Below, piece after piece: positions 37,356 through 64,000 of a DNA stretch of 64,000 bases. The DNA is from an uncultured Gammaproteobacteria bacterium. GTDB lineage: Bacteria; Pseudomonadota; Gammaproteobacteria; UBA9214. The notes under the pieces are model-generated. The model did no database searches, was not told the origin of the DNA, and saw nothing but the letters and a program-made list of their open reading frames with translations. The stretch spans positions 5,720-69,719 of the forward strand of contig CAVQJD010000018.1 of NCBI GenBank assembly GCA_963712695.1, read 5' to 3'. Made by a program: the position numbers and the translations under genes. Every line of letters begins with the position of its first letter. The first letter of the stretch is position 1.

Positions 37356-38664
37356 GCAAACAGTGATCGGAGTACTGATTGCGCTGGCACTCGGTGGCGG
37401 TGGCGGGTACTGGGTTGCAAACACCCTGACCAGCGAAGGTGCGGCACCCGCTGTTGATGCCGGCATGACAAGCGCCGGGCCCACGGCGCTGTTCTACCGC
37501 AATCCCATGAATCCGGCGATCACCTCGCCGGTGCCGGCGCAGGATGAGATGGGCATGGATTACATACCGGTGTATGCCGAGATAGACACCGGCAGCGACG
37601 ACAGCCTGGCAGGCACGGTCAGGATCGATCCGGTGACCGTGCAGAATATCGGGGTCCGCACGGCAGTAGCCAGGCGGGAATCACTCAGCCGGCATATCCG
37701 CAGCGTGGGTCGTGTCGACTTCGACGAAGAGCGGCTGTCGAGCCTGCATCCAAAGACGGAAGGCTGGATCGAGCAGCTGTATATCGACAAGACGGGCGAA
37801 CAGATCGACAAGGACGCGATACTGCTGAATATCTACTCGCCGCAACTGGTAACCAGCCAGCAGGAATACCTGCTTGCGCTGAACAACCTGGACGTGCTGA
37901 ATAAAAGTCCGTACCAGGAAATTCGCCAGGGTGCAAAAGATCTCATCAGCAGTGCGCGCGAACGGCTCGAGCTGCTGGATGTGCCGGAGCACCAGATCCG
38001 CGAGCTGGAGCGCACCCGCAAGATCAAAAAGAGCCTGCACATTCATTCACCCTTCGACGGAGTGATCATGAATATCGGTGCGCGCGAAGGCCAGTATGTC
38101 ACCCCGAGCACCGAACTCTACAAGATTGCCGACCTGACACGGGTCTGGGTGTTCGCGGACGTCTACGAGACAGAAGTGTCCTGGATCCAAGCCGGCGATC
38201 CTGTAGAAATGAAGCTCGCGGCGATCCCGGGCAGGGTATTCACCGGGCGTGTCGGTTACGTCTATCCCTATGCCGAAGCCAGGACGCGCACCATCAAGGT
38301 TCGTCTTGAGTTCGATAACACGGACCTGCTGCTCAAGCCGGACATGTTTGCCGATGTCACCATCCACGCCCAGCGCACGGTCGATGCCCTGGTGATACCG
38401 GCTGAAGCGGTAGTGCGTTCCGGCGAGCGGGACCAGGTTTTCGTGGTACGCGCCCCCGGCAAGTTCGAACCGCGCGTGGTCGGGCTGGGCGTGAGTTCAA
38501 GAGGGATGGTGCAGGTCATCGACGGGCTTGCCGCCGGTGAGGTGGTGGTCACTTCCAGCCAGTTCCTGATTGATTCCGAGTCCAAGCTGCGCGAGGCGAC
38601 GGCGAAGATGCTGGAGACGATGTCAACAGGACAGGGAGGCGCTGATGATCAGGGCAATCATTGA
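37348..38664 (+). CDS. cusB: RND periplasmic adaptor (membrane fusion protein), heavy-metal type
   Basis: FYRNPMNPAITSPVPAQDEMGMDYIPVY (metal-type MFP N-terminus) and barrel-sandwich/hairpin segments are present. The GTG start overlaps the cusC stop. Confidence 0.8.
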   Translation: MNRQTVIGVLIALALGGGGGYWVANTLTSEGAAPAVDAGMTSAGPTALFYRNPMNPAITSPVPAQDEMGMDYIPVYAEIDTGSDDSLAGTVRIDPVTVQNIGVRTAVARRESLSRHIRSVGRVDFDEERLSSLHPKTEGWIEQLYIDKTGEQIDKDAILLNIYSPQLVTSQQEYLLALNNLDVLNKSPYQEIRQGAKDLISSARERLELLDVPEHQIRELERTRKIKKSLHIHSPFDGVIMNIGAREGQYVTPSTELYKIADLTRVWVFADVYETEVSWIQAGDPVEMKLAAIPGRVFTGRVGYVYPYAEARTRTIKVRLEFDNTDLLLKPDMFADVTIHAQRTVDALVIPAEAVVRSGERDQVFVVRAPGKFEPRVVGLGVSSRGMVQVIDGLAAGEVVVTSSQFLIDSESKLREATAKMLETMSTGQGGADDQGNH

Positions 38665-41600
38665 TGCGTCGCTGCGTAACCGGTTCCTGGTCATCATTGC
38701 CACGCTGATCATCGTGGCGGCAGGTCTCTGGGCGCTCAGAAACATTCCTCTCGATGCGATACCCGACCTTTCGGATGTGCAGGTCATCGTATTTACCAGG
38801 TATCCGGGCCAGGCACCACAGGTGGTCGAGGACCAGGTAACCTATCCGCTCACCACGGCCATGCTGGCAGTCCCCGGCGCCAGGGTCGTGCGCGGGTATT
38901 CCTTTTTCGGATTTTCATTTGTCTACATCATCTTCAATGATGGCATCGACATGTACTGGGCGCGTTCCCGGGTGCTGGAGTACCTCAACTATGTGAGCAG
39001 CCGCCTGCCGGCAGGCGTTTCACCCAGTCTCGGACCGGATGCGACAGGTGTCGGCTGGATCTATGAGTACGCACTGGTCGACCGCACGGGCCAGCATGAT
39101 CTGGCCGAACTGCGCTCCATCCAGGACTGGTACCTGCGCTATCCGCTGCAGACGGTGCAGGGAGTTTCCGAGGTCGCCTCGGTGGGCGGTTTCGTCAAAC
39201 AGTACCAGGTCGAGGTAGACCCCAATCTCCTGCAGGCCTATGACGTCTCGCTCGAGAAGGTGGAGCGTGCGATTCAGCGTTCCAACCAGGATGTCGGCGG
39301 CCGGCTGGTAGAGCTGGCCGAGACCGAATACATGGTGCGCGGCCGGGGGTATATACAGGGCATCGAGGACCTAAAAAAGATACCGGTCGGGGTGGATGCC
39401 AGGGGCACACCGATTCGGCTGGTGGACGTCGCCAACGTCCACCTGGGGCCGGAGTTGCGGCGTGGCCTGGTGGAACTCGACGGAGAGGGCGAAGTGGCCG
39501 GTGGTGTTGTCGTCATGCGCTACGGGGAAAATGCCCTGGCTACCATCGAAGGGGTGCGCGAGAAACTCGGGGAGCTGAAAAAGGGCTTACCCGCGGGTGT
39601 GGAGATCGTAACGGTCTATGATCGCGGTGACCTCATTGAACGGGCGGTAGATAATCTCGAGGAGAAGCTGGTCGAGGAATCCATCGTGGTCAGCCTGATC
39701 ACGATTCTGTTCCTGTTGCATGCCCGTTCTGCACTGGTCGCGATTGTGTCGCTGCCGGTCGGCATCCTGATGGCGTTCGGTGTCATGTACTGGCAGGGGA
39801 TCAATGCCAACATCATGTCACTGGGCGGGATTGCCATCGCCATCGGTGCCATGGTCGACGGCGCCATCGTCATGATCGAGAATGCGCACAAACACCTCGA
39901 ACACAGTGCCGTCAGCAAGGGGCATCCGCTGACGCTGGACGAGCGCTGGGACGCCGTGGCAGAGGCCGCCCGGGAAGTCGGGCCGGCACTGTTCTTCTCC
40001 CTGCTGATCATTACCGTGTCCTTTCTGCCGGTGTTCACCTTGCAGGCCCAGGAGGGGCGCCTGTTTGCACCGCTGGCCTTCACCAAGACCTTCGCCATGG
40101 CCGCGGCCGCCGTGCTGGCCATTACGCTGGTGCCGGTGCTGATGGGGTACTTCATTCGCGGCAAGATTTTGCCGGAGGCGAAAAATCCCGTGAACCGGGT
40201 GCTGCACACCCTGCACGCACCGGTATTGCGTATCGCCCTCAGCTGGCGCTGGCTTACGCTGTTGCTGGCCGTGCTGTTGCTGGGTGGGAGCCTGTACCCT
40301 GTGATGAAACTGGGCAGCGAGTTCATGCCGCCGCTCGATGAAGGCGACATCCTGTATATGCCGACCACCTATCCAGGACTTTCCATCGCCAAGGCGAAGG
40401 AACTGTTGCAACAGACTGATAAAATCCTGAAGACCTTCCCCGAGGTCGAGTCGGTATTTGGCAAGGTAGGGCGTGCCGATACGGCGACCGATCCGGCACC
40501 ATTGTCCATGCTGGAAACCACGGTCAGGCTCAGGCACAGGGATGAGTGGCCGGATCCCGGTAAATCAACCAGGGACCTGATGAGTGAAATGGACCTTGCG
40601 ATCCGTTTCCCGGGGCTGGCCAATGCCTGGACCATGCCGATCAAGACCCGCATCGATATGCTGTCGACCGGCATCAAGACACCGATCGGTATCAAGGTCA
40701 GCGGGCCTGATTTGCAGGTGCTGGAACAGCTGGCCAGCGACATCGAGCAGGTAGTCAAGCAACTGCCCGAAACGCTCTCGGCCTTTGGCGACAAGGCGGC
40801 CGGCGGCTACTACCTGGATTTCGATCTCCGCCGGGAGGACGCGGCACGCTACGGCCTGACCGTCGGCGACATTCAGGATGTCATTCAGACCGCGATAGGT
40901 GGCATGAACATCACCTGGACGGTGGAAGGCCTGGAGCGCTACCCGGTCAATCTGCGTTATCCACGCGAGCTGCGTGACAACCTCGAGGATCTCAAGCGGG
41001 TGCTGATATCGACCCCGACGGGCACCCAGATCCCGCTGTCCCTGGTGGCCGATCTGCACATGCGGCGCGGGCCGCCCGTGATCAAGACGGAGGACTCACG
41101 GCCCAATGCCTGGGTGTATGTCGACATCACCACGGCGGACATCGGTGGTTATGTGGCACAAGCCAAACGGATCGTGGAACAGGAGGTCAAGCTGCCGCCG
41201 GGATATACGCTGGCCTGGTCGGGCCAGTTCGAATACATGGAACGCGCCGCGCAACGCCTGCGTATCGTGGTGCCGGTGACCTTGCTGATTATCTTTCTGC
41301 TGCTGTATTTCAATTTTCGCAACATTGCCGAGCCGCTGGTGGTCATGTTGTCCATCCCCTTCGGGCTCGTTGGTGGCTTCTGGCTGGTGTACTGGCTGGG
41401 CTTCAACCTGTCCGTGGCAGTGGCGGTGGGTTTCATCGCACTCGCGGGCGTGGCCGCCGAAATCGGCGTGCTGGTGCTGACCTTCATCGACCACGAAGTG
41501 GCGCGCTGTCGACAGGCACATGCACGCCTGACGGCCGGCGACATCATACAGGCGGTACACAAGGGTACCTCGGAGCGTGTACGGCCGATCGCGATGACGG

Positions 41601-41809
41601 CAACGGCCATTATCGGTGGTCTGCTGCCGATCATGTGGGGCAGCGGAACCGGTTCCGAGGTCATGCAGCGCATCGCCGCACCGATGGTGGGCGGGATGGT
41701 AACAGTGACTATACTCAGTTTGCTGGTGCTGCCGGTGGTATATGGACTTGTCTTGCAATGGCGTGAACGTTCATTGCCGGGGGAGCCGGCGGGTGATACC
41801 AGTGCGTGA
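38645..41809 (+). CDS. cusA: Heavy-metal efflux RND permease (CusA/CzcA family)
   Basis: MIRAIIDASLRNRFLVIIATLII...DAIPDLSDVQVIVFTRYPGQAP. About 1054 aa with a 12-TM pattern. The start was trimmed to ATG 38645. Confidence 0.88.
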   Translation: MIRAIIDASLRNRFLVIIATLIIVAAGLWALRNIPLDAIPDLSDVQVIVFTRYPGQAPQVVEDQVTYPLTTAMLAVPGARVVRGYSFFGFSFVYIIFNDGIDMYWARSRVLEYLNYVSSRLPAGVSPSLGPDATGVGWIYEYALVDRTGQHDLAELRSIQDWYLRYPLQTVQGVSEVASVGGFVKQYQVEVDPNLLQAYDVSLEKVERAIQRSNQDVGGRLVELAETEYMVRGRGYIQGIEDLKKIPVGVDARGTPIRLVDVANVHLGPELRRGLVELDGEGEVAGGVVVMRYGENALATIEGVREKLGELKKGLPAGVEIVTVYDRGDLIERAVDNLEEKLVEESIVVSLITILFLLHARSALVAIVSLPVGILMAFGVMYWQGINANIMSLGGIAIAIGAMVDGAIVMIENAHKHLEHSAVSKGHPLTLDERWDAVAEAAREVGPALFFSLLIITVSFLPVFTLQAQEGRLFAPLAFTKTFAMAAAAVLAITLVPVLMGYFIRGKILPEAKNPVNRVLHTLHAPVLRIALSWRWLTLLLAVLLLGGSLYPVMKLGSEFMPPLDEGDILYMPTTYPGLSIAKAKELLQQTDKILKTFPEVESVFGKVGRADTATDPAPLSMLETTVRLRHRDEWPDPGKSTRDLMSEMDLAIRFPGLANAWTMPIKTRIDMLSTGIKTPIGIKVSGPDLQVLEQLASDIEQVVKQLPETLSAFGDKAAGGYYLDFDLRREDAARYGLTVGDIQDVIQTAIGGMNITWTVEGLERYPVNLRYPRELRDNLEDLKRVLISTPTGTQIPLSLVADLHMRRGPPVIKTEDSRPNAWVYVDITTADIGGYVAQAKRIVEQEVKLPPGYTLAWSGQFEYMERAAQRLRIVVPVTLLIIFLLLYFNFRNIAEPLVVMLSIPFGLVGGFWLVYWLGFNLSVAVAVGFIALAGVAAEIGVLVLTFIDHEVARCRQAHARLTAGDIIQAVHKGTSERVRPIAMTATAIIGGLLPIMWGSGTGSEVMQRIAAPMVGGMVTVTILSLLVLPVVYGLVLQWRERSLPGEPAGDTSA

Positions 41810-42154
41810 GACGTGAGACGTGAGACGTGAGACGTGATACGTGAGACGTGAAACGTGAAACGTGGAAAGAAGAATGGCCACGGAATCCACGGAAGAACAC
41901 GGAAAAATAAAACAGTAGGTAGGGTGCGTTTTACGCACCGGGAACGGCGTCCGGGGTGCCTCTCGCGGCTGATGTGATGCGTGCAAAGAACAATGGCCAC
42001 GGAATCCACGGAAGAACACGGAAAAATTAAACATTAGGTAGGGTGCGTTTTACGCACCGGGAACGGCGTGCGAGGTGCCTCTACGATCTGTTGCTGCAAA
42101 AGCGATGCGTGCAAGAACAATGGCCACGGAATCCACGGAAGAACACGGAAAAAT
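41805..42154 (+). repeat. Composite repeat locus A: 9 CGTGAGA-type heptamers, three 36-bp triple-CACGGAA modules and two GTAG-headed REP hairpins
   Basis: Heptamers span 41805-41867. AATGGCCACGGAATCCACGGAAGAACACGGAAAAAT occurs at 41873, 41992 and 42119. GTAGGGTGCGTTTTACGCACC occurs at 41919 and 42039 region. Confidence 0.9.
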
Positions 42155-42185: not shown

Positions 42186-44659
42186 GTGAAATGTGCATGC
42201 GTGATGATGAATCTCACCAGGGAGATGCCTGTGACAATCGCAACTGATCCCGTGTGCGGTATGCAGGTCAGCAGCGACAGCCCGCACCGCTATAGCTACG
42301 CCGGCAGTGACTACTATTTCTGCTGTGCCGGCTGCCTGGAAAAATTCCGTGCCACGCCCGACCGCTATCTGCAGCCACAGCCGCTGGATGCGTCTCACGC
42401 CGGCACGCGCGCCGCTGCAAGCTGCAGCATCGATGCATCGCCTATACCTGCCCCATGCATCCGGAGGTCGAGCAGGCCGCTCCCGGTTCATGCCCGAAAT
42501 GCGGCATGGCGCTGGAGCCGGCAGCCGGGATGCTGCCGGTTGCGCGTACCGTGTATACCTGCCCCATGCATCCGGAGGTCGAGCAGGATCACCCGGGCAG
42601 CTGCCCGAAATGCGGTATGGCACTGGAGCCCCGCACCCACGCTGCGCGTGAGGATACCAGCGAACTGGATGCAATGACGCGGCGCTTGTGGGTCACGGCC
42701 CTGCTGGCTCTGCCGGTATTCGTGCTGGCCATGGTGGCGGATATGGCTCCCGCAGCGCTGCCTGAGGCATTGTCCATGCGGAGTGTGCAATGGATCGAGT
42801 GCGTACTGGCGACACCGGTCGTGCTGTGGGGTGGCTGGCCGTTCTTCGTGCGCGGCTGGCAATCCGTGGTGAGCTGGAACCTCAACATGTTCACCCTGAT
42901 CGGCCTGGGCGTGGCAGTTGCCTGGAGCTACAGCATCGTGGCCCTGCTGCTGCCACAGTGGTTCCCGCCGGCCATGCAGCATGCGGACGGCACCGTACCG
43001 GTCTACTTCGAGGCCGCTGCCGTCATCACCGCGCTGGTACTGCTTGGACAGGTACTCGAATTACGTGCCCGCAGCCGGACCAATGCGGCCATTAAGCTGT
43101 TGCTGGGGCTGGCGCCGAACAGCGCGCGCATCGTGCAGGCTGACGGGAGCGAGCAGGACATTGCACTGGAGCAGGTACAGCCCGGCAACATCTTGCGTAT
43201 TCGCCCGGGTGAAAAAATACCGGTGGACGGGGTGGTCACCGACGGCAGCAGCGCGGTGGATGAATCGATGGTGACCGGCGAACCGCTACCGGTGGAAAAG
43301 CACGCCGGCGAGCCGCTGATCGGAGCGACACTGAATGGTACCGGCAGTCTGCTGATGCGCGCGGAAAAAGTCGGCGCCGATACCCTGCTGGCGCAGATCG
43401 TGCGTATGGTCAGCGCGGCACAGCGTTCACGTGCCCCGATACAGAAACTGGCAGACAGCGTGGCCGGATATTTCGTGCCGACGGTGGTCATTGTCGCTGT
43501 CATTACCCTCGTTGCCTGGGGGTTCTGGGGGCCTGAGCCACGCCTGGCACATGCCATCGTCAATGCCGTTGCCGTGTTGATCATTGCCTGCCCCTGCGCG
43601 CTCGGACTGGCTACTCCCATGTCGATCATGGTCGGCACCGGCAGGGGCGCACTGCTTGGCGTGCTGATCAAGAATGCCGAGGCACTGGAGATCATGGAGC
43701 AGGTCGACACACTTGTGGTGGACAAGACCGGCACCCTGACCGAGGGAAAACCGGAACTGGTCGCGGTACAGGCCGCCCGCGGATTTATTGCTGATGAGAT
43801 GCTGCAACTGGCGGCCAGTCTGGAGCGCGCCAGTGAACACCCGCTGGCCGAGGCGATTGTGCGCGGTGCGCAAGACCGCGGCCTGATCCTGGGTCAGGCC
43901 GATGACTTCGAGTCTGCGACTGGCCAGGGTGTGACCGGAAAAGTCAATGGACGCAGGGTGGCGTTGGGCAACATCAGGCTGCTGGAAGCGCTTGGTATCG
44001 ATCCGGGTGATCTGGCGCACCAGGCCGAGGCCGGACGTACCGAGGGCCAGACCGTCATGTTTGTCGCTGTCGACGGCCGGGCCGCCGGGCTGATCGGCGT
44101 CGCCGATCCCGTCAAGGCCTCTACTGCAGAGGCCATTCGTGATCTGCATGCCGCAGGTGTCCAGGTCGTCATGCTGACCGGCGACAACCGGATCACGGCC
44201 GGGGCCGTGGCGCGCAAGCTCGGCATCGACCGTATCGAAGCCGAGGTATTACCGGCCCGGAAGGCAGAAATCGTCGGCAAGCTGCAGGCCGAGGGGCACA
44301 TCGTGGCCATGGCCGGCGATGGCATCAACGACGCCCCGGCGCTGGCCCGGGCTCATGTGGGTATCGCCATGGGTACCGGAACGGATATCGCCATGGAAAG
44401 CGCGGCTATCACGCTGGTCAAGGGCGACCTGCGCGGCATAGTGCGGGCACGGCGCCTGAGTCGCGAGGTGATGCGCAACATCCGTCAAAACCTGTTCTTT
44501 GCCTTTGTCTACAACTCGCTGGGCGTCCCGCTGGCAGCCGGGGTGCTGTACCCGGTGTTCGGGCTGCTGCTGTCGCCGATGATTGCGGCCGCCGCCATGA
44601 GTTTCAGCTCGGTGTCGGTGATCGCGAATGCGCTGCGCCTGCGCAAGGCGCATATCTGA
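42186..44659 (+). pseudogene. copA: Copper-translocating P1B-type ATPase with N-terminal TRASH/YHS domain and two CPMHPEV metal-binding modules; frame switch between about 42370 and 42440
   Basis: The frame of ORF 42186..42677 gives [34 protein letters not shown]. The frame of ORF 42455..44659 gives YTCPMHPEV (x2), [18 protein letters not shown] and the rest. The two frames overlap 42311-42677. Confidence 0.85.
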
Positions 44660-57702: not shown

Positions 57703-58315
57703 CGTGAAACGTGAGACGTGAGACGTGAGACGTGAAGCGTGAAGCGTGAGACGTGAAGCGTGGGCCTTGAAAAGAAGAGTAGCCGCGGAATCCACGGAAG
57801 AACACGGAAAAATTAATGTAGGGTGCGTTTTACGCACCGGCAGCGGTGCGCAGAGCGCACCCTACAACTGCGGGATGTTCCATTGCGTGAAACGTGAAAC
57901 GTGAGACGTGAAACGTGAAGGGTGAATTTAAACTCCGAATGATAATGGCCACGGAATCCACGGAAGAACACGGAAAAATTAATGTAGGGTGCGTTTTACG
58001 CACCGGCAGCGGTGCGCAGAGCGCACCCTACAACTGCGGGATGTTCCATTGCGTGAAACGTGAAGGGTGAATTTAAACTCCGAATGATAATGGCCACGGA
58101 ATCCACGGAAGAACACGGAAAGGATTTGAAAATTGTATACGAGTGAATCGTTCACTCCGGCAGAATGTCATGCATGGCAACTATGCCTGTAATGGTATCT
58201 AGTTAATGTTGTTTTTATTTTTCCGTGTTCTTCCGTGGATTCCGTGGCCATTAAATACAGCCCATTATTCACGTCTCACGTCTCACGTCTCACGTCTCAC
58301 GTCTCACGTTTCACG
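57703..58315. repeat. Composite repeat locus B: three forward units (heptamers, 36-bp module, REP doublet), a core of about 95 bp, then an inverted 36-bp module and inverted heptamers
   Basis: Forward heptamers lie at 57703-57765, 57886-57927 and 58052-58072. The 36-bp module lies at about 57778, 57944 and 58089. REP doublets lie at 57818-57865 and 57984-58031. The inverted module is at 58217-58252 and (CACGTCT)n at 58270-58315. Confidence 0.92.
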
Positions 58316-59208: not shown

Positions 59209-59371
59209 AACATCCTGTGTTGTCTGCTGCGTGGCCCCGGTCTCACCTTCATCCTGCGCGCAGGCCTGGTGAAATTCAGGCACAAGATAAGCGCCTGGCC
59301 GGAGACTTGCAATGATTACCTGCGGGTTACAGCTGTTCGCCGACGATAACCGCAGTTTCATGTCAGTCATT

Positions 59372-59876
59372 CAGGGTGCGTTTTACGCACCAGCGGCTGA
59401 TTTTATGAGACGTGAAAAGATAAAGAATGATGGCCACGGAATCCACGGAAGAACACGGAAAAATTTCCATCAGAAATCGTTTGGCTTGAAGGGTACACAA
59501 TGCATGCCTGCTTTGATTGGTTTTCAATTGACCGGGCGTTTGTTATACCCGAGACATTCCGTGTATTTCCGTGGCCATTTTCATTCGCACATGAGATGTG
59601 CTCAAAAGAATGTTTTCACGACTCAATTCCGTCACATTGCGCATTTATTTTTCCGTGTTCTTCCGTGGATTCCGTGGCCATTATCTTTCGCGCATGAGTT
59701 GCGCTCTTAAAGCAATGATGTCACGCCTCAGCTTTATAACATTGCGGTTTTATTTTTCCGTGTTCTTCCGTGGATTCCGTGGCCATTAAATACAGCGCCC
59801 ATTCACGTCTCACCTTTCACGTCTCACGCAGTAACGCACATGGTGAACCCAGCATTGCTCCTCTTCCGTGCCCATT
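59372..59876. repeat. Composite repeat locus C: forward REP, short heptamer and 39-bp module, a core of about 90 bp, then three inverted modules, inverted heptamers and a degenerate end module
   Basis: The REP is CAGGGTGCGTTTTACGCACC (59372-59391). The forward module is at 59426-59464. Inverted modules are at about 59555-59580, 59647-59682 and 59752-59787. Inverted heptamers span 59804-59828. Confidence 0.9.
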
Positions 59877-60490: not shown

Positions 60491-62131
60491 ATGGCTGACG
60501 GTTAATATGATGTCGTGATCATCGGCGCCGGCGCCGGGGGCGGCAGTGTTGCCTGGGGCCTGGCGCGTGCCGGTGTCCGGGTGCTGTTGCTGGAGGCCGG
60601 ACCGCGCTTCGATCCGGTCAGCGACTTCCGCCTCGATCTGCCGGCCTGGGAGCTGACGCGCTTTCCGGACAAGCCAGGCTCACGTGGCCGCTACAGCTAC
60701 GCCGAACTGCAGCCGCTCGATCCGCACCGCCAGCACCTGCGCTCCTACAACATCCACACCGGCCGCTATGCGCCGGGCGAGCGGCGCCACGCCCAGGGCT
60801 ATCAGCATGTGCGCGGTGTCGGTGGCAGCACGCTGCATTTCACCGGTGAGGCGCACCGGCTCAATCCGCGCGCCATGCGCCTGCACAGCGAGTACGGGGT
60901 TGGTGCCGACTGGCCACTGGATTACGCCGCACTGGAGCCCTGGTACGAGCAGGCCGAGCAGGTGATCGGCGTCGCCGGGCCGGTACAGACTGCGCAGCGG
61001 CCGCGCCGCACGCCCTGTCCGTTACCGGCGCATCCCCTGTCCTGGGCGAGCCAAAAGCTGGCCGACGGAGCGGCCTTCCTGGGCTGGGGCTGGGAGCCCA
61101 ACACCCTGGCTGCGCTGTCCCGGCCCTATGAGGGACGGCCGGGCTGCAACTACTGCCTGCAATGCAACCGCGGTTGCCCGCGCGGCGACAAGGGTAGTGT
61201 CGATGTCACCTTCCTGCGTGCCGCCGTGGCCAGCGGCAATTGCACCATCCAGACCGGTGTCCAGGTCACGCGCCTGCTGGCCGGCGACAACGATCGCGTG
61301 AGCGGGGTGGAGGTCCATGACGGCAGGGGCGAGCAGCGCCTGACCGCCCCGGTGGTGGTGTTGTGCGCCGGCAGCATCGAGACGCCGCGTCTGCTGCTGG
61401 CCTCCGACGGGCTCGGCAACGAGAGCGGCCAGGTCGGACGCAATTTCCTCGAGACCCTGAGCTGGGCCAGCATCGGGCTGCACCCGGAGCCGTTGGGTAG
61501 TCACCGCGGCCTGCCCTCGGACAGTATCTGCTGGGATTTCAATGCGCCGGACGCCATTCCCGGTGCGGTCGGCGGTATGCGCCTGAGCCCGGTGGTGGGC
61601 GAGGCCGATCTGTCCGGCGCCTTCAACTATGCCACGCGCGTGGTGGGTGGCTGGGGCCTGCGCCACAAGCAGGCCATGCGTGCGCGCTTCGGGCATGCGC
61701 TGGGCGTCGGGGCGATCGGAGAATGTCTACCTGATACAGGTAGTTACGTCGATCTGGATGCGGAGCAGCGCGATGCCGCCGGTATGCCCCTGGCGCGCAT
61801 CCACAGTCACCTGGGCGACATGGCGGTGCGCCGGCTCGAGTTCATGGCCGGACGCTGCCGCGAGTTGCTCATCGCCAGCGGAGTGGATACGCTGGTCGAG
61901 GAATATGGCAGTTACGACCTGTTCAGCGCCACGCACGTGTTCGGCACCTGCCGCATGGGGCATGACCCGGCACAGTCCGTGGTCAATGCCGACTGCCGTA
62001 GCCACCGCTGGCGCAACCTGTACATCGTCGATGGCAGCGTGTTTCCCAGTACGGGTGGCGGCGAAGCGCCGTCATTGACCATCGAGGCGCTGGGCCTGCG
62101 TGCCGCCGACCATATTCGCACCCGGGCATGA
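60491..62131 (+). pseudogene. GMC-family FAD oxidoreductase with an in-frame TAA at codon 5 (or a truncated GTG start at 60515)
   Basis: The start reads ATG GCT GAC GGT TAA TAT GAT GTC GTG ATC ATC GGC, that is MADG*YDVVIIGAGAGGGSVA. The Rossmann beta1-GxGxxG begins right after the stop. The C-terminal part has TCRMGHD...NLYIVDGSVFPS. Confidence 0.75.
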
Positions 62132-62244
62132 TCGGGGCAGCAGAATCGCTGTGTGCGTGACTATAATGACAGCACGTTGAATACAATAATGTGAATGCCG
62201 GCAGCGCGGCTGCAGCGAGCGCCGGCGTCATGAAGGAGCAAAAC

Positions 62245-63138
62245 ATGCAAGCACCCAGGACAACGAAAGTTATTTTCCTGCTGGCGATGACGATGGCCAC
62301 GGTCGATGTGGCCCAGGCCTTCGGTTTCGGCAATATGATGAACCCGTCCCGCTGGATGGGTGGTGACCGCGATCGTGACGACGACTATTACGGCGCGGCG
62401 CCGTACGGTTACGGCTATCCCGGCGGCTATGCCGCGCCGGGCTATGCGCCGCCCGGCTATGTGCAACCAGGCTACGCGGCACCCGGTTACGGTTACGGTT
62501 ACGGTGCACCGGTCTATCCGGCCCCGGTTATCGCTGCCCCCGCGCCCGCCGCTGTGCCGGCTCCGGTAGTCGCCGCCCCGGCCCCGGCCGCGAAGGCGGC
62601 TGCCGCCAAGCCGCCACCCGTATTGACCGCCGACGAGGCGGAAATCGCGCGGCTGCAAAAGCGCATCCGCGAACTGGAAGCCGCCGGTGAAACACCGGTC
62701 TACACCGTGCCGACCGGCACGGGTTCGGCTGGCAGTGCGACCAGCGCATATCCCGACAGCTCGCCCTACAACCAGGACTACCGCTTCCCGGACAGCACCC
62801 AGGGGCATGCTGCCCCCGCGGCGGCTGAAGCGGCGCCCCGGGCCGTCAAGGCGCAGCCCGAATACCCGGTCTATTCACCCTTTGGCCCGCCCGCGGAGTT
62901 CCCGCCACTGGAGCCGGAGCCGGCTGCAGCGACTGAGGACAAGGCGGTTGCGGCGCCTGTGGCCGCGCCGGCTGCATCCGCCGCGCCGGTCGCAGCGAAA
63001 AGCGTGGAAGTCGAGGCACCGCCTGCAGCGGAGCCGACAGTGCCAGCCGGTGTGGTCAACTTCACGCCCGGCAACCCGGCGGCGTACGTCCCACCCATGC
63101 AGAACACCGGCCAGCGGGTGTACGAACTGGGACGCTGA
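62245..63138 (+). CDS. Exported low-complexity Gly/Tyr/Pro/Ala-rich protein (possible sulfur-globule-envelope-like structural protein)
   Basis: An AAGGAG RBS lies 6 nt upstream of ATG 62245. The signal peptide is MQAPRTTKVIFLLAMTMATVDVAQA. YYGAAPYGYGYPGGYAAPGYAPPGYVQPGYAAPGYGYGYGAP is followed by Ala/Pro-rich tracts. Confidence 0.6.
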   Translation: MQAPRTTKVIFLLAMTMATVDVAQAFGFGNMMNPSRWMGGDRDRDDDYYGAAPYGYGYPGGYAAPGYAPPGYVQPGYAAPGYGYGYGAPVYPAPVIAAPAPAAVPAPVVAAPAPAAKAAAAKPPPVLTADEAEIARLQKRIRELEAAGETPVYTVPTGTGSAGSATSAYPDSSPYNQDYRFPDSTQGHAAPAAAEAAPRAVKAQPEYPVYSPFGPPAEFPPLEPEPAAATEDKAVAAPVAAPAASAAPVAAKSVEVEAPPAAEPTVPAGVVNFTPGNPAAYVPPMQNTGQRVYELGR

Positions 63139-63169
63139 GGAAACCGTGGGGGCAGGGCAGGTTTGTATT

Positions 63170-63650
63170 AATGGCCAAGGAAGCACACGGAAATGCACGG
63201 AAAAATGCTGGGTGCACTCTGTGCACCAGCGCGTGAGAGTGAGACGTGAGACGTGAGACGTGAGACGTGAGACGTGAGACGTGAGACGTGAAGCGTGAGA
63301 CGTGAAATGTGAGACGTGAAACGTGAGACGTGAGACGTGAAACGTGAATGATGGGCTGTGTCATATTTAATGGCCACGGAAGCACACGGAATGGAATCCA
63401 TGTATGCACAGGAACGATTCGCTCTGCCCGGCTGTGTGCCGAGGCATAGCGCTGGCATATGATAGCTCTTTGTTATTATTGTTTTATTTTTCCGTGTTCT
63501 TCCGTGGATTCCGTGGCCATTTAATACACCCCGTCATTCACGTTTCACATTTCACGTCTCACGTCTCACGTCTCACGTCTCACGTCTCACGTCTCACGCA
63601 GCAACGCTCAGATTGCACCCAGCATTTTTCCGTGTGCTTCCGTGGCCATT
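63170..63650. repeat. Composite repeat locus D: imperfect palindrome of about 480 bp built from the same modules (17 forward and 8.5 inverted heptamers)
   Basis: A variant module is at 63170-63206 and a hairpin at 63207-63230. Heptamers span 63232-63349. A variant module is at 63369-63402. The inverted module is at 63486-63521 and inverted heptamers at 63539-63598. The inverted end module is at 63615-63650. Confidence 0.92.
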
Positions 63651-63846
63651 AAAATCGCGCGTGCCTTTGCTCCGGCCCCAAAAAGAGGCCAGTAGCCTGT
63701 TTGTTGTATAGAATGCCCGCTGCGGGTAAAACGAGCTGCTCTCTGCCGCCGTTACCGACCTTGGTACTATTTATAACCGTCAGAAATGCAAGTAGATTAT
63801 CGTTTGCTGCTGTTTCCGGGCGCCGAATCGAGGATAACGAACCACT

Positions 63847-64000
63847 ATGGAACATCTGATTGCGCCGCACGGCGGGACGCTGTGCAACCTGGTCGTCGAT
63901 GAGGAGCGCGCCGAGGACCTCAAGATCACCTCCGCCGACGCACTCTCCGTCACCCTGAACGAACGCCAGACCTGTGACCTCGAGCTGCTGATGAACGGCG
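63847..64000 (+). CDS. sat: Sulfate adenylyltransferase (ATP sulfurylase), 5' part only
   Basis: MEHLIAPHGGTLCNLVVDEERAEDLKITSADALSVTLNERQTCDLELLMNG matches the Sat N-terminus. It is truncated by the window end. Confidence 0.8.
   Translation, partial: MEHLIAPHGGTLCNLVVDEERAEDLKITSADALSVTLNERQTCDLELLMNG

What the first reader, a model, noticed from the sequence alone, without database searches (positions are those of the whole stretch)
63170..63650. A 480-bp imperfect palindrome of repeat modules around a unique core; the same layout recurs at loci B and C
Locus D reads: variant module, hairpin, 17 heptamers, module, 83-bp core (63403-63485), inverted module, 8.5 inverted heptamers, half hairpin, inverted end module. 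It can therefore fold as a very long cruciform or RNA hairpin with unequal arms. Loci B (core 58122-58216) and C (core 59465-59554) likewise have forward modules facing inverted modules across cores of 90-95 bp. The cores share short motifs: GAGTGAATCGTTCACTC at 58141-58157, AAATCGTTT at about 59472, and GAACGATTCGC (the reverse complement of GCGAATCGTTC) at about 63411, which suggests the D core is flipped. The cores could be the functional payload (small RNA, binding site or recombination site) of a non-autonomous element whose ends are the modules.
Basis: seen in the sequence. Interest (0 to 1): 0.6.

Follow-up and report, generated by a model that had tools for sequence, protein, structure and literature searches.

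The report
Orphan nuclease-cassette arms form giant palindrome
The 480-base mirror-image block of repeats between two housekeeping genes is real, but its unique middle is not a shared payload: the repeats are the empty, locally multiplied arms of a small, widespread nuclease-gene cassette for which I found no published description.

Summary
Locus D (63168-63652) is a nested imperfect palindrome (RNA fold -296 kcal/mol against -162 for shuffles, z -19.7), and loci B and C have the same forward-facing-inverted layout.

The payload idea is mostly not supported. Cores B, C and D are locus-specific. They match none of 374 module-adjacent flanks from 26 assemblies. C resembles neither B nor D, and B and D share only weak colinear similarity. 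There is no covariation, no target-site duplication, and only trace RNA, for D alone.

The 36-nt module (three CACGGAA units spaced 9-10 nt) matches the arm of cassettes that carry a ~125-aa GxxExxY (PF13366, Cas4/RecB-like) nuclease gene. In relatives the same module brackets that gene. Across phyla, 37 of 53 such genes lie between inverted arms of CRCRGA units phased 9-10 nt.

Modules obey a strict polarity: 84 facing pairs against 2 diverging. They stay 94-97% identical where the enclosed gene has fallen to 60-67%. Unit numbers change quickly at orthologous loci, while whole loci were neither gained nor lost.

D is best read as a gene-less cassette whose arms grew in place by accreting heptamers and REP-like hairpins. 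Its centre is inverted in a sister species.

The nuclease's role is inferred.

The parts
63168..63207 (+). Outer variant module of the left arm (TTAATGGCCAAGGAAGCACACGGAAATGCACGGAAAAATG; three degenerate CACGGAA-type units)
   Evidence: Read. 2-mismatch match to the module core. Clusters with 14 other variant-module-plus-hairpin-plus-heptamer flanks (class 2).
63208..63229 (+). REP-like hairpin GGGTGCACTCTGTGCACC. It is a degenerate relative of the GTAG-headed hairpins of loci A-C; here the head reads GCTG instead of GTAG.
   Evidence: (family D10). Relatives carry GTAGGGTGCACTCCGTGCACC at the same place.
63232..63347 (+). Left heptamer array, CGTGAGA and variants, 16.7 copies
   Evidence: TRF. 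Heptamers are strictly co-oriented with modules family-wide (140 co-oriented against 1 reversed).
63366..63392 (+). Inner left module, a 2-unit variant (TTAATGGCCACGGAAGCACACGGAAT)
   Evidence: The same 2-unit variant sits on the same side of the homologous centre in L086.
63393..63485 (.). The last ~24 nt are the AT-rich inner extension of the module. It contains a sigma-70-like site at 63452-63479 pointing towards sat.
   Evidence: Singleton among 374 flanks. About 72% identical to L086 588-662. Inverted in the ortholog L051. No GxxExxY remnant. Folds better than shuffles on both strands (z about -3.9). Promoter-like site, where the count of such sites was not above chance.
63486..63521 (-). 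Canonical 36-nt module, inverted (three CACGGAA units spaced 9 and 10 nt)
   Evidence: The exact 34-mer occurs in 26 assemblies.
63538..63598 (-). Right heptamer array, inverted, 8.7 copies
   Evidence: TRF. The ortholog L051 has only about 1.5 copies at this place.
63599..63623 (-). Half of the REP-like hairpin (…GATTGCACCCAGC). The ortholog keeps the full hairpin.
63624..63652 (-). Outer inverted end module, 2 units (ATTTTTCCGTGTGCTTCCGTGGCCATTAA)
   Evidence: 1 mismatch. The ortholog has a 3-unit version.
57703..58315 (.). Locus B. The left arm has three units (heptamers, module, GTAG hairpin pair; 166-nt tandem unit). The centre is 58122-58216. The right arm has one inverted module plus 6.7 inverted heptamers. 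It lies between the 3' ends of sufE and an NYN-domain gene.
59369..59876 (.). Locus C. It holds a hairpin, a short heptamer remnant, a forward module, the centre 59465-59554, and three inverted modules (including a 105-nt tandem duplication) with inverted heptamers. It lies between the 5' regions of the NYN gene and a gluconate-dehydrogenase-type operon.
41805..42154 (+). Locus A, a one-armed array (heptamers, then three forward modules with two GTAG hairpins) with no inverted partner. The first heptamer supplies the TGA stop of the RND transporter gene.

Best explanation
**What it is.** Locus D is a gene-less, locally expanded copy of a repeat-armed cassette family. The full-length members of this family carry one small PD-(D/E)XK nuclease gene (GxxExxY, PF13366/TIGR04256).

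**The arm.** The arm is the 36-nt module AATGGCCACGGAATCCACGGAAGAACACGGAAAAAT. It holds three CACGGAA units phased 9-10 nt, roughly the helical repeat of B-DNA, so the units would face one side of the helix (this reading of the geometry is inferred). A tandem heptamer array sits on its outer side, always in the same polarity. Two arms face each other, and the gene, where present, sits between them. At D, B and C that space is filled by unrelated, locus-specific DNA.

**Shown here.**
- The arms are conserved as sequence, not as a pairing partner, and far more strongly than the enclosed gene or spacers.
- Module polarity is strict.
- Arms gain and lose whole units (heptamers + module + REP-like hairpin) at the module boundary between closely related species. 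Occupancy of loci stays stable over the same distance.
- The D centre lies in opposite orientation in a sister species.
- There is no target-site duplication.

**Inferred.**
- The phased units are docking sites for a sequence-specific protein. The best candidate is a GxxExxY nuclease supplied in trans from elsewhere in the genome (my odds about 0.4).
- The palindromic layout is inherited from the cassette (arm-gene-arm) after loss or absence of the gene.
- The 480-bp size comes from unequal recombination or slippage among tandem units.
- The centre flipped by recombination between the inverted arms.

On this reading the element is now largely sedentary selfish or neutral DNA. A transcript crossing it would contain a ~200-bp hairpin. 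Any effect of that hairpin on the upstream gene or on sat is untested.
For: **Anatomy and significance of D:**

**Family-wide polarity.** Among neighbouring modules less than 600 nt apart in 89 loci plus the window, there are 84 facing (+-) pairs, 2 diverging (-+), 52 ++ and 89 --. The minimal form is module, ~24-nt loop, inverted module.

**Link to the nuclease gene.**
- In three relatives the exact module brackets a GxxExxY gene at the orthologous gmd-fcl gap.
- In Marinobacter persicus a GxxExxY gene abuts a module pair, and a gene remnant lies in the centre of L070.
- In 80 loci fetched by the protein across phyla, 12 carry copies of the window's 18-mer with 3 or fewer mismatches. About 0.2 such copies are expected by chance, by my own calculation. 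Most of them lie within about 100 nt of the gene's ends.
- 37 of 53 genes have flanking inverted repeats scoring 16 or more, against 0 of 53 displaced controls.
- CRCRGA units average 2.0 per side in the inward polarity, against 0.5-0.66 on the wrong strand.
- Unit spacing is 9 nt (23 cases) or 10 nt (77 cases) out of 119, the same as in the window's module.

**Conservation.** At the gmd-fcl locus the right module is 94-97% identical and the left 80-91%, while the ORF is 60-67% and the spacers 13-39%.

**Arms do not covary.** There are 230 one-arm variants against 21 shared; shuffled partners give 16 +/- 3.6 shared.

**Heptamers belong to the arm.** 140 are co-oriented with their module and 1 is reversed.

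**Turnover.**
- An extra unit was added exactly at ...GGCCATT|flank in L085 relative to L022.
- 26 of 26 directional comparisons of orthologous blocks (about 12 loci) are occupied in both of two genomes that are 93-95% identical, but most differ in unit number.
- The D ortholog has 1.5 heptamers where the window has 8.7.

**Centre inversion:**

**The nuclease looks active.** G, E, Y, D, E-x-K positions are invariant or nearly so in 25 sequences. The model has pLDDT 95, and its best PDB matches are Cas4 SSO0001, MGME1 and lambda exonuclease.
Against: - No GxxExxY gene lies in the 64-kb window, and none of the 61 centres of 60 nt or more shows a gene remnant apart from the three intact genes. 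Descent of D from a gene-bearing copy is therefore not shown.
- I could not search the window's own genome for the gene.
- None of about 37 loci (about 250 kb) from the three species DATKZN, CAVVHS and JBATJF holds the gene. JBATJF is about 82-83% identical to the window in the two aligned stretches; the other two are 93-95% identical to JBATJF.
- The three gene-bearing loci with the exact module are orthologous, so they count as one event.
- In Marinobacter the gene lies beside the module pair, not inside it.
- No binding, cutting or movement was observed. No locus was gained or lost among the orthologous blocks compared (26 directional comparisons, about 12 loci).
- The syntenic relative L091 lacks modules at the C and D sites, but it has other genes there, so no clean empty site exists.
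- The very high conservation of the module could equally reflect a host function.
Confidence: 0.6

Rival explanations
1. The modules, hairpins and heptamers are a host-maintained REP/BIME- or ERIC-like mosaic. It would work on its own as a transcript hairpin (terminator, mRNA stabiliser, RNase III or RNase E site) or as a binding array for a nucleoid protein. The nearby GxxExxY genes would be mere passengers that prefer such palindromes as landing sites.
For: - Always intergenic, between housekeeping operons.
- Modules are much better conserved than neighbouring coding DNA.
- Occupancy of loci is stable between species, and there is no TSD.
- Module and heptamer contigs are present in metatranscriptomes.
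- GTAG-tagged REPs are known to sit inside larger palindromes and in mosaic intergenic regions (PMC3733652).
Against: - A purely structural RNA stem should show compensatory change, and it does not.
- BIME units alternate in orientation, whereas these arms are unidirectional up to the centre.
- The same unit type, phase and polarity brackets GxxExxY genes in many phyla. That is hard to explain if the gene were a random passenger.
Confidence: 0.2
2. Each locus would be a non-autonomous element whose ends are the modules and whose 83-95-bp core is the functional payload (a small RNA, binding site or recombination site).
For: - The D core with its modules lies on RNA-run contigs in two independent metatranscriptomes: 138 nt at depth 2.5 in X1, and 174 nt at depth 3 in X26, where it was the only contig laid on window 62000-64000 at 97% likeness.
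- The D core folds better than shuffles (z about -3.9).
- A homologous core with the same asymmetric pair (2-unit module on one side, canonical module on the other) sits at a different locus in another genome, L086.
- In other genomes some module-core-module units are duplicated: L035/L063 are 96% identical and L046/L073 are 95%.
Against: - Cores B, C and D are not a family.
- C has no relative anywhere in 1.3 Mb of element-rich loci.
- There is no covariation, no Rfam hit and no TSD.
- B and C cores are absent from the RNA runs examined, and the D core is absent from five other metatranscriptomes that do hold the flanking genes.
- Depth of the D core equals that of its neighbours, so read-through or DNA carry-over explains it.
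- The D-type centre was not found in a metagenome scan.
- Only L086 matched in the species-representative genomes.
- In the ortholog the core is only about 70% identical, interrupted by a 68-nt insertion, and inverted.
Confidence: 0.07
3. The palindromes are ordinary MITEs. The module would be the terminal inverted repeat of an unidentified transposase-encoding insertion sequence or transposon with multi-site ends (Tn7-, Mu- or IS21-like), which mobilises them in trans.
For: - 36-nt inverted ends built from repeated sub-sites.
- Exact 34-mer shared by 26 assemblies from several genera.
- Presence/absence differences between genera.
- Duplicated module-core-module units within a genome.
Against: - No TSD.
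- No homologous internal sequence or uniform size.
- No transposase between any facing pair up to 600 nt. The only protein gene found there is the GxxExxY nuclease gene.
- No copy on phage contigs or plasmids.
- No locus gain or loss among the orthologous blocks compared (26 directional comparisons, about 12 loci).
Confidence: 0.08
4. Locus D is an invertible switch (an inverton). The facing modules would be recombination sites, and flipping the centre, which carries a promoter-like site, would turn transcription towards sat on or off.
For: - The centre is inverted relative to sat between the window and its ortholog L051.
- A sigma-70-like site with an extended -10 lies at 63452-63479 and points towards sat.
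Against: - Promoter-like sites are not above chance in the region (3 found against 1.8 expected).
- The conserved sat upstream block lies outside the palindrome and is present in L091, which has no palindrome.
- Contigs from three independent samples (X1, X25, X26) all show the window's orientation. Contigs do drop rare variants, so this is not decisive.
- I did not look for an invertase gene near the locus.
- One inversion over about 18% divergence fits rare homologous recombination.
Confidence: 0.05

Closest known systems
Ssn nucleases with their NTS/SRM hairpin repeats (Neisseria and many other bacteria; PMC11893778)
   Same: - A small stand-alone nuclease gene is typically flanked on both sides by copies of a short hairpin-forming repeat.
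- The same repeat is also scattered in hundreds of gene-less copies and clusters around other genes.
- This is the same overall logic as GxxExxY genes between CACGGAA-type arms plus many orphan arms.
   Different: - Ssn is a GIY-YIG enzyme, whereas GxxExxY is a PD-(D/E)XK, Cas4/RecB-like fold.
- The NTS is a single ~30-nt hairpin, whereas these arms are arrays of 7-nt units phased 9-10 nt, and only the two arms together form the hairpin.
- Binding and cutting are demonstrated for Ssn. Nothing is demonstrated here.
REP/REPIN elements with RAYT transposases, and GTAG-tagged REP families (PMC3733652)
   Same: - Short extragenic palindromes in high copy, often paired in opposite orientation and able to fold into larger structures.
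- The mobilising gene is itself flanked by the repeats.
- The hairpin modules of loci A-C are GTAG-headed (GTAGGGTGCGTTTTACGCACC) and fit that super-family's description.
   Different: - The CACGGAA module is not itself a palindrome and has no GTAG head.
- Its associated gene is not a Y1/HUH transposase.
- Whether a RAYT exists in this genome could not be tested.
BIMEs (bacterial interspersed mosaic elements) of E. coli (from my own knowledge)
   Same: Intergenic mosaics built from a few short module types in fixed relative order, with variable copy number between strains.
   Different: - BIME palindromic units alternate in orientation along the array.
- Here all units of one arm point the same way and the polarity switches once, at the centre.
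ERIC/IRU and Correia (CREE) elements: MITE-like imperfect palindromes of enterobacteria and Neisseria (from my own knowledge)
   Same: - Imperfect palindromes of 100-150 bp in transcribed intergenic DNA.
- Strikingly conserved across genera.
- Some copies are enlarged by internal insertions.
- Their hairpins are processed in RNA.
   Different: - Correia elements make a TA duplication and have a homologous interior.
- Here there is no TSD and the interiors are unrelated.
- The arms here are built of phased sub-repeats and are linked to a nuclease gene.
Foldback (FB) transposons of Drosophila (from my own knowledge; a working analogy only)
   Same: - Long inverted arms made of tandem arrays of short sub-repeats.
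- Arms of unequal and variable length.
- A central loop that differs from copy to copy.
   Different: These are eukaryotic, with no sequence or protein relationship. No membership is claimed.

Membership tests
GxxExxY (PF13366) repeat-armed cassette, gene-less form (a grouping from this scan, not a published family) | Arms built of CRCRGA(W)-type 7-nt units | tested here: met
   The module holds three CACGGAA units. CACGGAA, CACGGAT and CACAGAT are among the commonest units beside GxxExxY genes across phyla.
GxxExxY (PF13366) repeat-armed cassette, gene-less form (a grouping from this scan, not a published family) | Units phased 9-10 nt, 2-3 per arm | tested here: met
   Spacing is 9 and 10 nt in the window's module (consensus). 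It is 9 or 10 nt in 100 of 119 unit pairs beside GxxExxY genes.
GxxExxY (PF13366) repeat-armed cassette, gene-less form (a grouping from this scan, not a published family) | Two arms in inverted, inward-facing orientation | tested here: met
   84 facing against 2 diverging neighbour pairs. D, B and C all face inward.
GxxExxY (PF13366) repeat-armed cassette, gene-less form (a grouping from this scan, not a published family) | A GxxExxY gene, or a remnant of one, between the arms | tested here: not met
   No tblastn hit in the window. No profile hit in centres B, C or D. D is therefore filed only as a gene-less form.
GxxExxY (PF13366) repeat-armed cassette, gene-less form (a grouping from this scan, not a published family) | The same arm sequence brackets a GxxExxY gene in the same genome | not testable with these tools
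The feature is met in relatives: L054, L082 and L084, with the gene adjacent in L036.
MITE | Terminal inverted repeats | tested here: met
MITE | Target-site duplication of fixed length | tested here: not met
   In 40 solitary palindromes the distribution of flanking direct repeats equals that of shuffled flank pairs. At D the flanks are ...TTGTA and AATCG....
MITE | Copies share a homologous interior and a uniform size | tested here: not met
   Centres range from 13 to 528 nt. The inner flanks of B, C and D are singletons among 374.
MITE | A parent element with the same ends that encodes a transposase | not tested
   Whole genomes were not searchable. No transposase was seen between facing pairs up to 600 nt apart.
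REP / REPIN (RAYT-associated) | A short (20-40 nt) palindrome with an unpaired GTAG (or CGTC) tag | tested here: inconclusive
   The hairpin modules of loci A-C meet it (GTAGGGTGCG...). D's hairpin has GCTG instead of GTAG. The CACGGAA module itself does not meet it.
REP / REPIN (RAYT-associated) | A RAYT gene in the genome, flanked by the repeat | not testable with these tools
BIME | Palindromic units alternating in orientation, separated by fixed linker motifs | tested here: not met
   Units of one arm are all co-oriented, and the polarity changes once per locus.
Ssn-NTS system | The nuclease belongs to the GIY-YIG superfamily | tested here: not met
   The associated gene is PF13366/TIGR04256 with a Cas4/RecB-like fold.
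Invertible promoter switch (inverton) | Both orientations coexist in one population | tested here: inconclusive
   Contigs from three runs all show one orientation, but contigs hide rare variants. The orientation does differ between species.

The most novel reading that the evidence does not exclude
GxxExxY nucleases and their phased-unit arms would form an undescribed nuclease-plus-repeat system. It would parallel RAYT-REP and Ssn-NTS but use a minimal Cas4/RecB-like enzyme that reads arrays of 7-nt units spaced one helical turn apart.

Locus D would then show what the gene-less arms do when left in a chromosome. They seed foldback arrays that grow by unit accretion, recruit REP hairpins and stop-rich heptamers, stay under sequence constraint through the trans-acting nuclease, and let the enclosed DNA flip.
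Probability: 0.2. Interest if true: 0.8.

Novelty: new variant of a known kind. Interest (0 to 1): 0.5.

Why it matters
PF13366/GxxExxY is a very large protein family with no assigned function. The 2012 survey of PD-(D/E)XK enzymes lists it as unknown (PMC3424549), and I found no paper linking it to repeats.

This locus ties a conspicuous, multi-genus intergenic repeat to that family, which gives a concrete test: does the nuclease bind or cut the triple-CACGGAA module? It also explains why short-read assemblies of these gammaproteobacteria break at such sites. Contigs L051 and L048 both end inside arrays.

Finally, it shows that a non-coding 36-mer can remain 94-97% identical while the gene it brackets drifts to 60-67%. 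That calls for a trans-acting reader or continuous homogenisation.

Tried and rejected
- **Known RNA families.** Rfam found nothing in the window's loci or in 18 loci with large centres. There were only sub-threshold chance hits, for example DUF3800-VII at 25 bits against a cut-off of 36.
- **Core homology.** blastn, local alignment with shuffles, and nhmmer with a B/D/L086 profile found no further members in 1.3 Mb.
- **Consensus fold of the cores.** -8.25 kcal/mol, with no useful covariation.
- **Gene remnants in centres.** None.
- **TSD search.** Equal to the null.
- **Empty-site comparison with the syntenic relative L091.** Other genes occupy the C and D positions there, so no clean junction exists.
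- **D-type centre in public data.** Only L086 in species-representative genomes (the seven other matches did not resemble the element). Zero in metagenome contigs.
- **Vector for spread.** No copy on viral contigs or plasmids.
- **CsrA sponge idea** (ACGGA fits the ANGGA motif). Rejected because the homologous units in other phyla are CACAGAT or CACGAAA, which lack GGA.
- **DnaA box, sigma-54 promoter, NtrC or AlgR site.** These resemblances were recalled from memory. Each fits only 4-6 bases or has the wrong half-site order, so all were dropped.
- **Integron attC or CRISPR array.** Wrong orientation pattern and irregular spacing.
- **Sequence search of the nuclease against PDB.** No hit. Only the fold search was informative.
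Full report
**1. The observation**

- an outer variant module (63168-63207);
- a small hairpin (63210-63227);
- 16.7 CGTGAGA heptamers (63232-63347);
- a 2-unit module (63366-63392);
- a unique centre (63393-63485);
- the canonical inverted module (63486-63521);
- 8.7 inverted heptamers (63538-63598);
- half a hairpin;
- an inverted end module (63624-63652).

The two arms are true inverted copies. Even the spacer between heptamers and module is shared: GTGAATGAYGGG...TTAATGGCC. As single-stranded RNA the 501 nt fold at -296 kcal/mol against -162 +/- 7 for shuffles (z -19.7). The module core occurs 16 times in the window against 0.01 expected. Loci B and C have the same forward-facing-inverted layout, and locus A (41805-42154) is a one-armed version.

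**2. The repeat family outside the window**

An exact 34-mer of the module occurs in 89 stretches from 26 assemblies. Most are uncultured Gammaproteobacteria, but Marinobacter, Oceanisphaera and Natronospirillum are also represented. None is on viral contigs or plasmids.

Conservation defines a 36-nt module, AATGGCCACGGAATCCACGGAAGAACACGGAAAAAT, with three CACGGAA units spaced 9 and 10 nt.

The main organising rule is polarity. Among neighbouring modules less than 600 nt apart there are 84 facing pairs and only 2 diverging pairs. Every intergenic block reads (+)n(-)m.

The distance between facing modules runs continuously from 13 to 528 nt. The simplest members, common in more distant genomes, are module, ~24-nt loop, inverted module.

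Heptamers of the GTGA-N3 type sit on the outer side of modules and are co-oriented with them 140 times to 1. Heptamers and module are therefore one polar arm, not independent repeats.

**3. Are the cores a payload?**

- **Similarity.** blastn finds no B-C, B-D or C-D match. A more sensitive local alignment gives B-D a colinear score of 17 against 8.8 +/- 1.5. About a third of that is the AT-rich inner extension of the module, and without it the score is 11 (14 of 500 shuffles reach it). C is at background. The orientation is the same in B and D, so the suggestion that D is flipped relative to B is not borne out.
- **Shared motif.** The 7-mer AATCGTT is marginal: a shared word of 7 or more appeared in 21 of 2000 shuffles, and the motif was picked after the fact.
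- **Uniqueness.** Clustering the 130 nt inside every one of 374 modules gives big classes for module followed by GTAG hairpin (106) and minimal hairpins (41). All the flanks facing the B, C and D cores, and the downstream flank of locus A's last module, are singletons.
- **Relatives of the D core.** The D core has exactly two relatives. One is a paralogue in another genome at another locus (L086, 72% over 77-83 nt), which has the same asymmetric pair of a 2-unit module on one side and the canonical module on the other. The other is its ortholog in a sister species (L051). A profile of B, D and L086 finds nothing more in 1.3 Mb of element-rich DNA. A pattern scan of species-representative genomes returned only L086, and a metagenome scan returned nothing.
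- **Structure.** The consensus fold is weak and without informative covariation. Rfam has no family for any centre.
- **Target-site duplication.** Flank direct repeats of 40 solitary palindromes match the shuffled-partner null.

Transcripts:
- Contigs covering module-centre-module of D occur in two metatranscriptomes: X1 (138 nt, depth 2.5) and X26 (174 nt, depth 3). In X26 this was the only contig laid on window 62000-64000.
- Five other metatranscriptomes that contain the neighbouring genes lack the D centre.
- The B and C centres were not seen in the three RNA runs laid on that stretch (X26, X1, X3).
- These are unstranded assembler contigs at the same depth as the flanking genes. Read-through or DNA carry-over is as good an explanation as a discrete RNA.

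**4. What sits between the arms when something recognisable does**

All-against-all comparison of centres turned up three centres of 430-530 nt that encode a protein. NCBIfam and Pfam call it GxxExxY (TIGR04256) / PDDEXK_3 (PF13366) at E 1e-37 to 1e-40. The three are one orthologous locus, gmd-[module, gene, inverted module]-fcl, in three genomes.

The alignment is instructive:

| Region | Pairwise identity |
|---|---|
| ORF | 60-67% |
| Spacers | 13-39% |
| Right module | 94-97% |
| Left module | 80-91% |

Further cases: a fourth gene lies immediately beside a module pair in Marinobacter persicus, and a 24-residue remnant lies in the 712-nt centre of L070.

I then sampled from the protein side. 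Of 80 loci fetched with the protein from at least ten phyla:
- 12 carry copies of the window's 18-mer with 3 or fewer mismatches. About 0.2 are expected by chance, by my own calculation. Most lie within about 100 nt of the gene's ends.
- 37 of 53 usable loci have flanking inverted repeats scoring 16 or more, against 0 of 53 for windows displaced by 700 nt.
- CRCRGA units average 2.0 per side in the inward polarity against 0.5-0.66 on the wrong strand.
- Consecutive units are 9 or 10 nt apart in 100 of 119 cases.

The window's module thus has the unit type, number, phase and polarity of a GxxExxY cassette arm.

The protein keeps the G-x-G-x-L-E-x-x-Y, D and E-x-K positions in 25 diverse sequences. 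Its model has pLDDT 95. Its closest solved folds are Cas4 SSO0001, MGME1 and lambda exonuclease, and sequence search of the PDB finds nothing.

I reached this link before reading earlier notes of this scan. Those notes report the same gene-plus-arms design in other genomes, and none of them concerns this genome.

**5. How the arms evolve**

- **No covariation.** Facing arms do not covary: 230 variant positions are confined to one arm and 21 are shared, against 16 +/- 3.6 for random partners. It is the sequence, not the pairing, that is kept.
- **Stable occupancy, fast unit turnover.** Three congeneric genomes (93-95% identical in syntenic DNA) give 26 directional comparisons of orthologous blocks, about 12 loci. 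All 26 are occupied in both genomes, but most differ in number of units, for example 6 against 1, or 1+3 against 4+3.
- **A dissected case.** In L022 versus L085, one extra unit (short heptamer, REP hairpin, module) is added exactly between ...CCGTGGCCATT and the unique flank. The breakpoints are ambiguous over the shared module end. That is what unequal recombination between direct module copies predicts, and no TSD is present.
- **The window versus a more distant relative (JBATJF).** The two aligned stretches are 82-83% identical. The order of parts in D's right arm is conserved, but there are 1.5 heptamers instead of 8.7, a full instead of a half hairpin, and a 3-unit instead of a 2-unit end module. 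Locus B is likewise occupied but differently composed.
- **A syntenic genome without the palindromes.** L091 (74-89% identical to the window across the aligned stretches, genes 83-89%) has no modules at the C and D positions, but it has other genes there, so no clean empty site exists. The conserved sat upstream block lies to the right of the palindrome in all three genomes. The D centre is therefore not needed for sat expression in relatives.

**6. Inversion**

Aligned against L051, the D centre is colinear only as its reverse complement, while sat lies on the same side in both. L051 also has a 68-nt insertion made of two other small hairpin repeats. The simplest reading is one recombination between the inverted arms since the two species split.

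Contigs from three independent samples all show the window's orientation. There is therefore no sign of an active switch, although contigs would hide a minority form.

**7. Best explanation and rivals**

I read D as a gene-less GxxExxY-type cassette whose arms expanded in place.

Shown:
- the arm identity;
- the polarity;
- the sequence constraint;
- the unit turnover;
- the inversion;
- the lack of TSD and of locus turnover.

Inferred:
- a GxxExxY nuclease encoded elsewhere reads the phased units;
- D descends from a gene-bearing or minimal hairpin copy;
- growth was by unequal recombination.

The main rival is a host-maintained REP/BIME/ERIC-like element in which the nuclease genes are only lodgers. 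This cannot be excluded without biochemistry or whole-genome statistics. The payload-MITE, classical-MITE and invertible-switch readings each fail at least one direct test.

**8. Comparison with known systems**

- The nearest printed analogue in logic is Ssn with its NTS repeats: a small nuclease gene flanked by the hairpin repeat it recognises, with hundreds of orphan repeats (PMC11893778). Next is RAYT with REP/REPIN; the GTAG-tagged hairpins of loci A-C fit that super-family as described in PMC3733652.
- It differs from both in enzyme fold and in arm architecture.
- The mosaic, variable arrays recall BIMEs, and the cross-genus conservation recalls ERIC.
- Arms of tandem sub-repeats around a variable loop recall Drosophila foldback elements. 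That is a working analogy only.
- In the paper library GxxExxY/PF13366 is listed as of unknown function, and no paper connects it with repeats.

**9. Limits**

I have no copy count for the window's own genome and no check for its GxxExxY or RAYT genes.
- All sequencing runs were available only as assembler contigs.
- The gene-bearing loci with the exact module amount to two independent cases.

Noticed in passing
window 41805-41811 and 38570-41809: The TGA stop codon of the AcrB/CzcA-type RND transporter gene lies inside the first CGTGAGA heptamer of locus A. The repeat array abuts the coding sequence with no spacer.
   Followed up: partly
window 42186-42677 and 42455-44659: A YHS-domain ORF overlaps, in another frame, the start of a heavy-metal P-type ATPase ORF that has two HMBD repeats. 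This looks like one gene split by a frameshift or an assembly error.
   Followed up: no
window 59557-59788: A 105-nt tandem duplication (2.2 copies, 83% identical) in the right arm of locus C. It carries a further small hairpin repeat (CGCACATGAGATGTGCTC / CGCGCATGAGTTGCGCTC) that recurs beside modules in related genomes.
   Followed up: partly
L051 60-130, L048 2440-2520, L087, L009 and L076 centres: Two more hairpin repeat types travel with the modules in relatives: GGAGCGGACnnnGTCCGCGA and GCGCATCTCATGCGCGA. Together they make up the 68-nt insertion in the inverted D centre of L051.
   Followed up: partly
window 62191-63138: A 315-aa Pro/Ala-rich ORF full of 6-, 15- and 39-nt tandem repeats and with no Pfam match. 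It is transcribed in several metatranscriptomes (contigs at 99-100% identity).
   Followed up: no
L027 and L090 (JABDRC010000144.1, JABDRC010000176.1): Contigs of a MAG labelled Halobacteria archaeon carry the gammaproteobacterial module and a GMC oxidoreductase 81% identical to the window's. This is probably a binning contaminant.
   Followed up: no
L070 1468-2215: A 712-nt centre between a forward and an inverted module holds a 24-residue GxxExxY remnant and what look, on reading the sequence, like further short coding stretches on the minus strand (not checked). This suggests centres can accumulate and degrade genes.
   Followed up: partly
L082 6640-6665, L084 and L054 (gmd-fcl locus): The inverted module ends only 5-8 nt before the ATG of fcl, leaving no room for a normal ribosome-binding site. 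How fcl is translated there is unexplained.
   Followed up: no
L035 and L063 (one contig, about 15 kb apart); L046 and L073 (about 1.2 kb apart): Pairs of module-centre-module units with 95-96% identical centres within one genome, in opposite orientation. This is the best hint in the data that whole gene-less units can be copied.
   Followed up: partly
L058, L072, L014, L006 solitary hairpins: Minimal hairpins have asymmetric conserved outer flanks: ...TGRTAAAGACAGATAT on one side and TTAATAA-N-ACTGGCAC on the other. The unit is therefore longer than the palindrome and has its own polarity.
   Followed up: no
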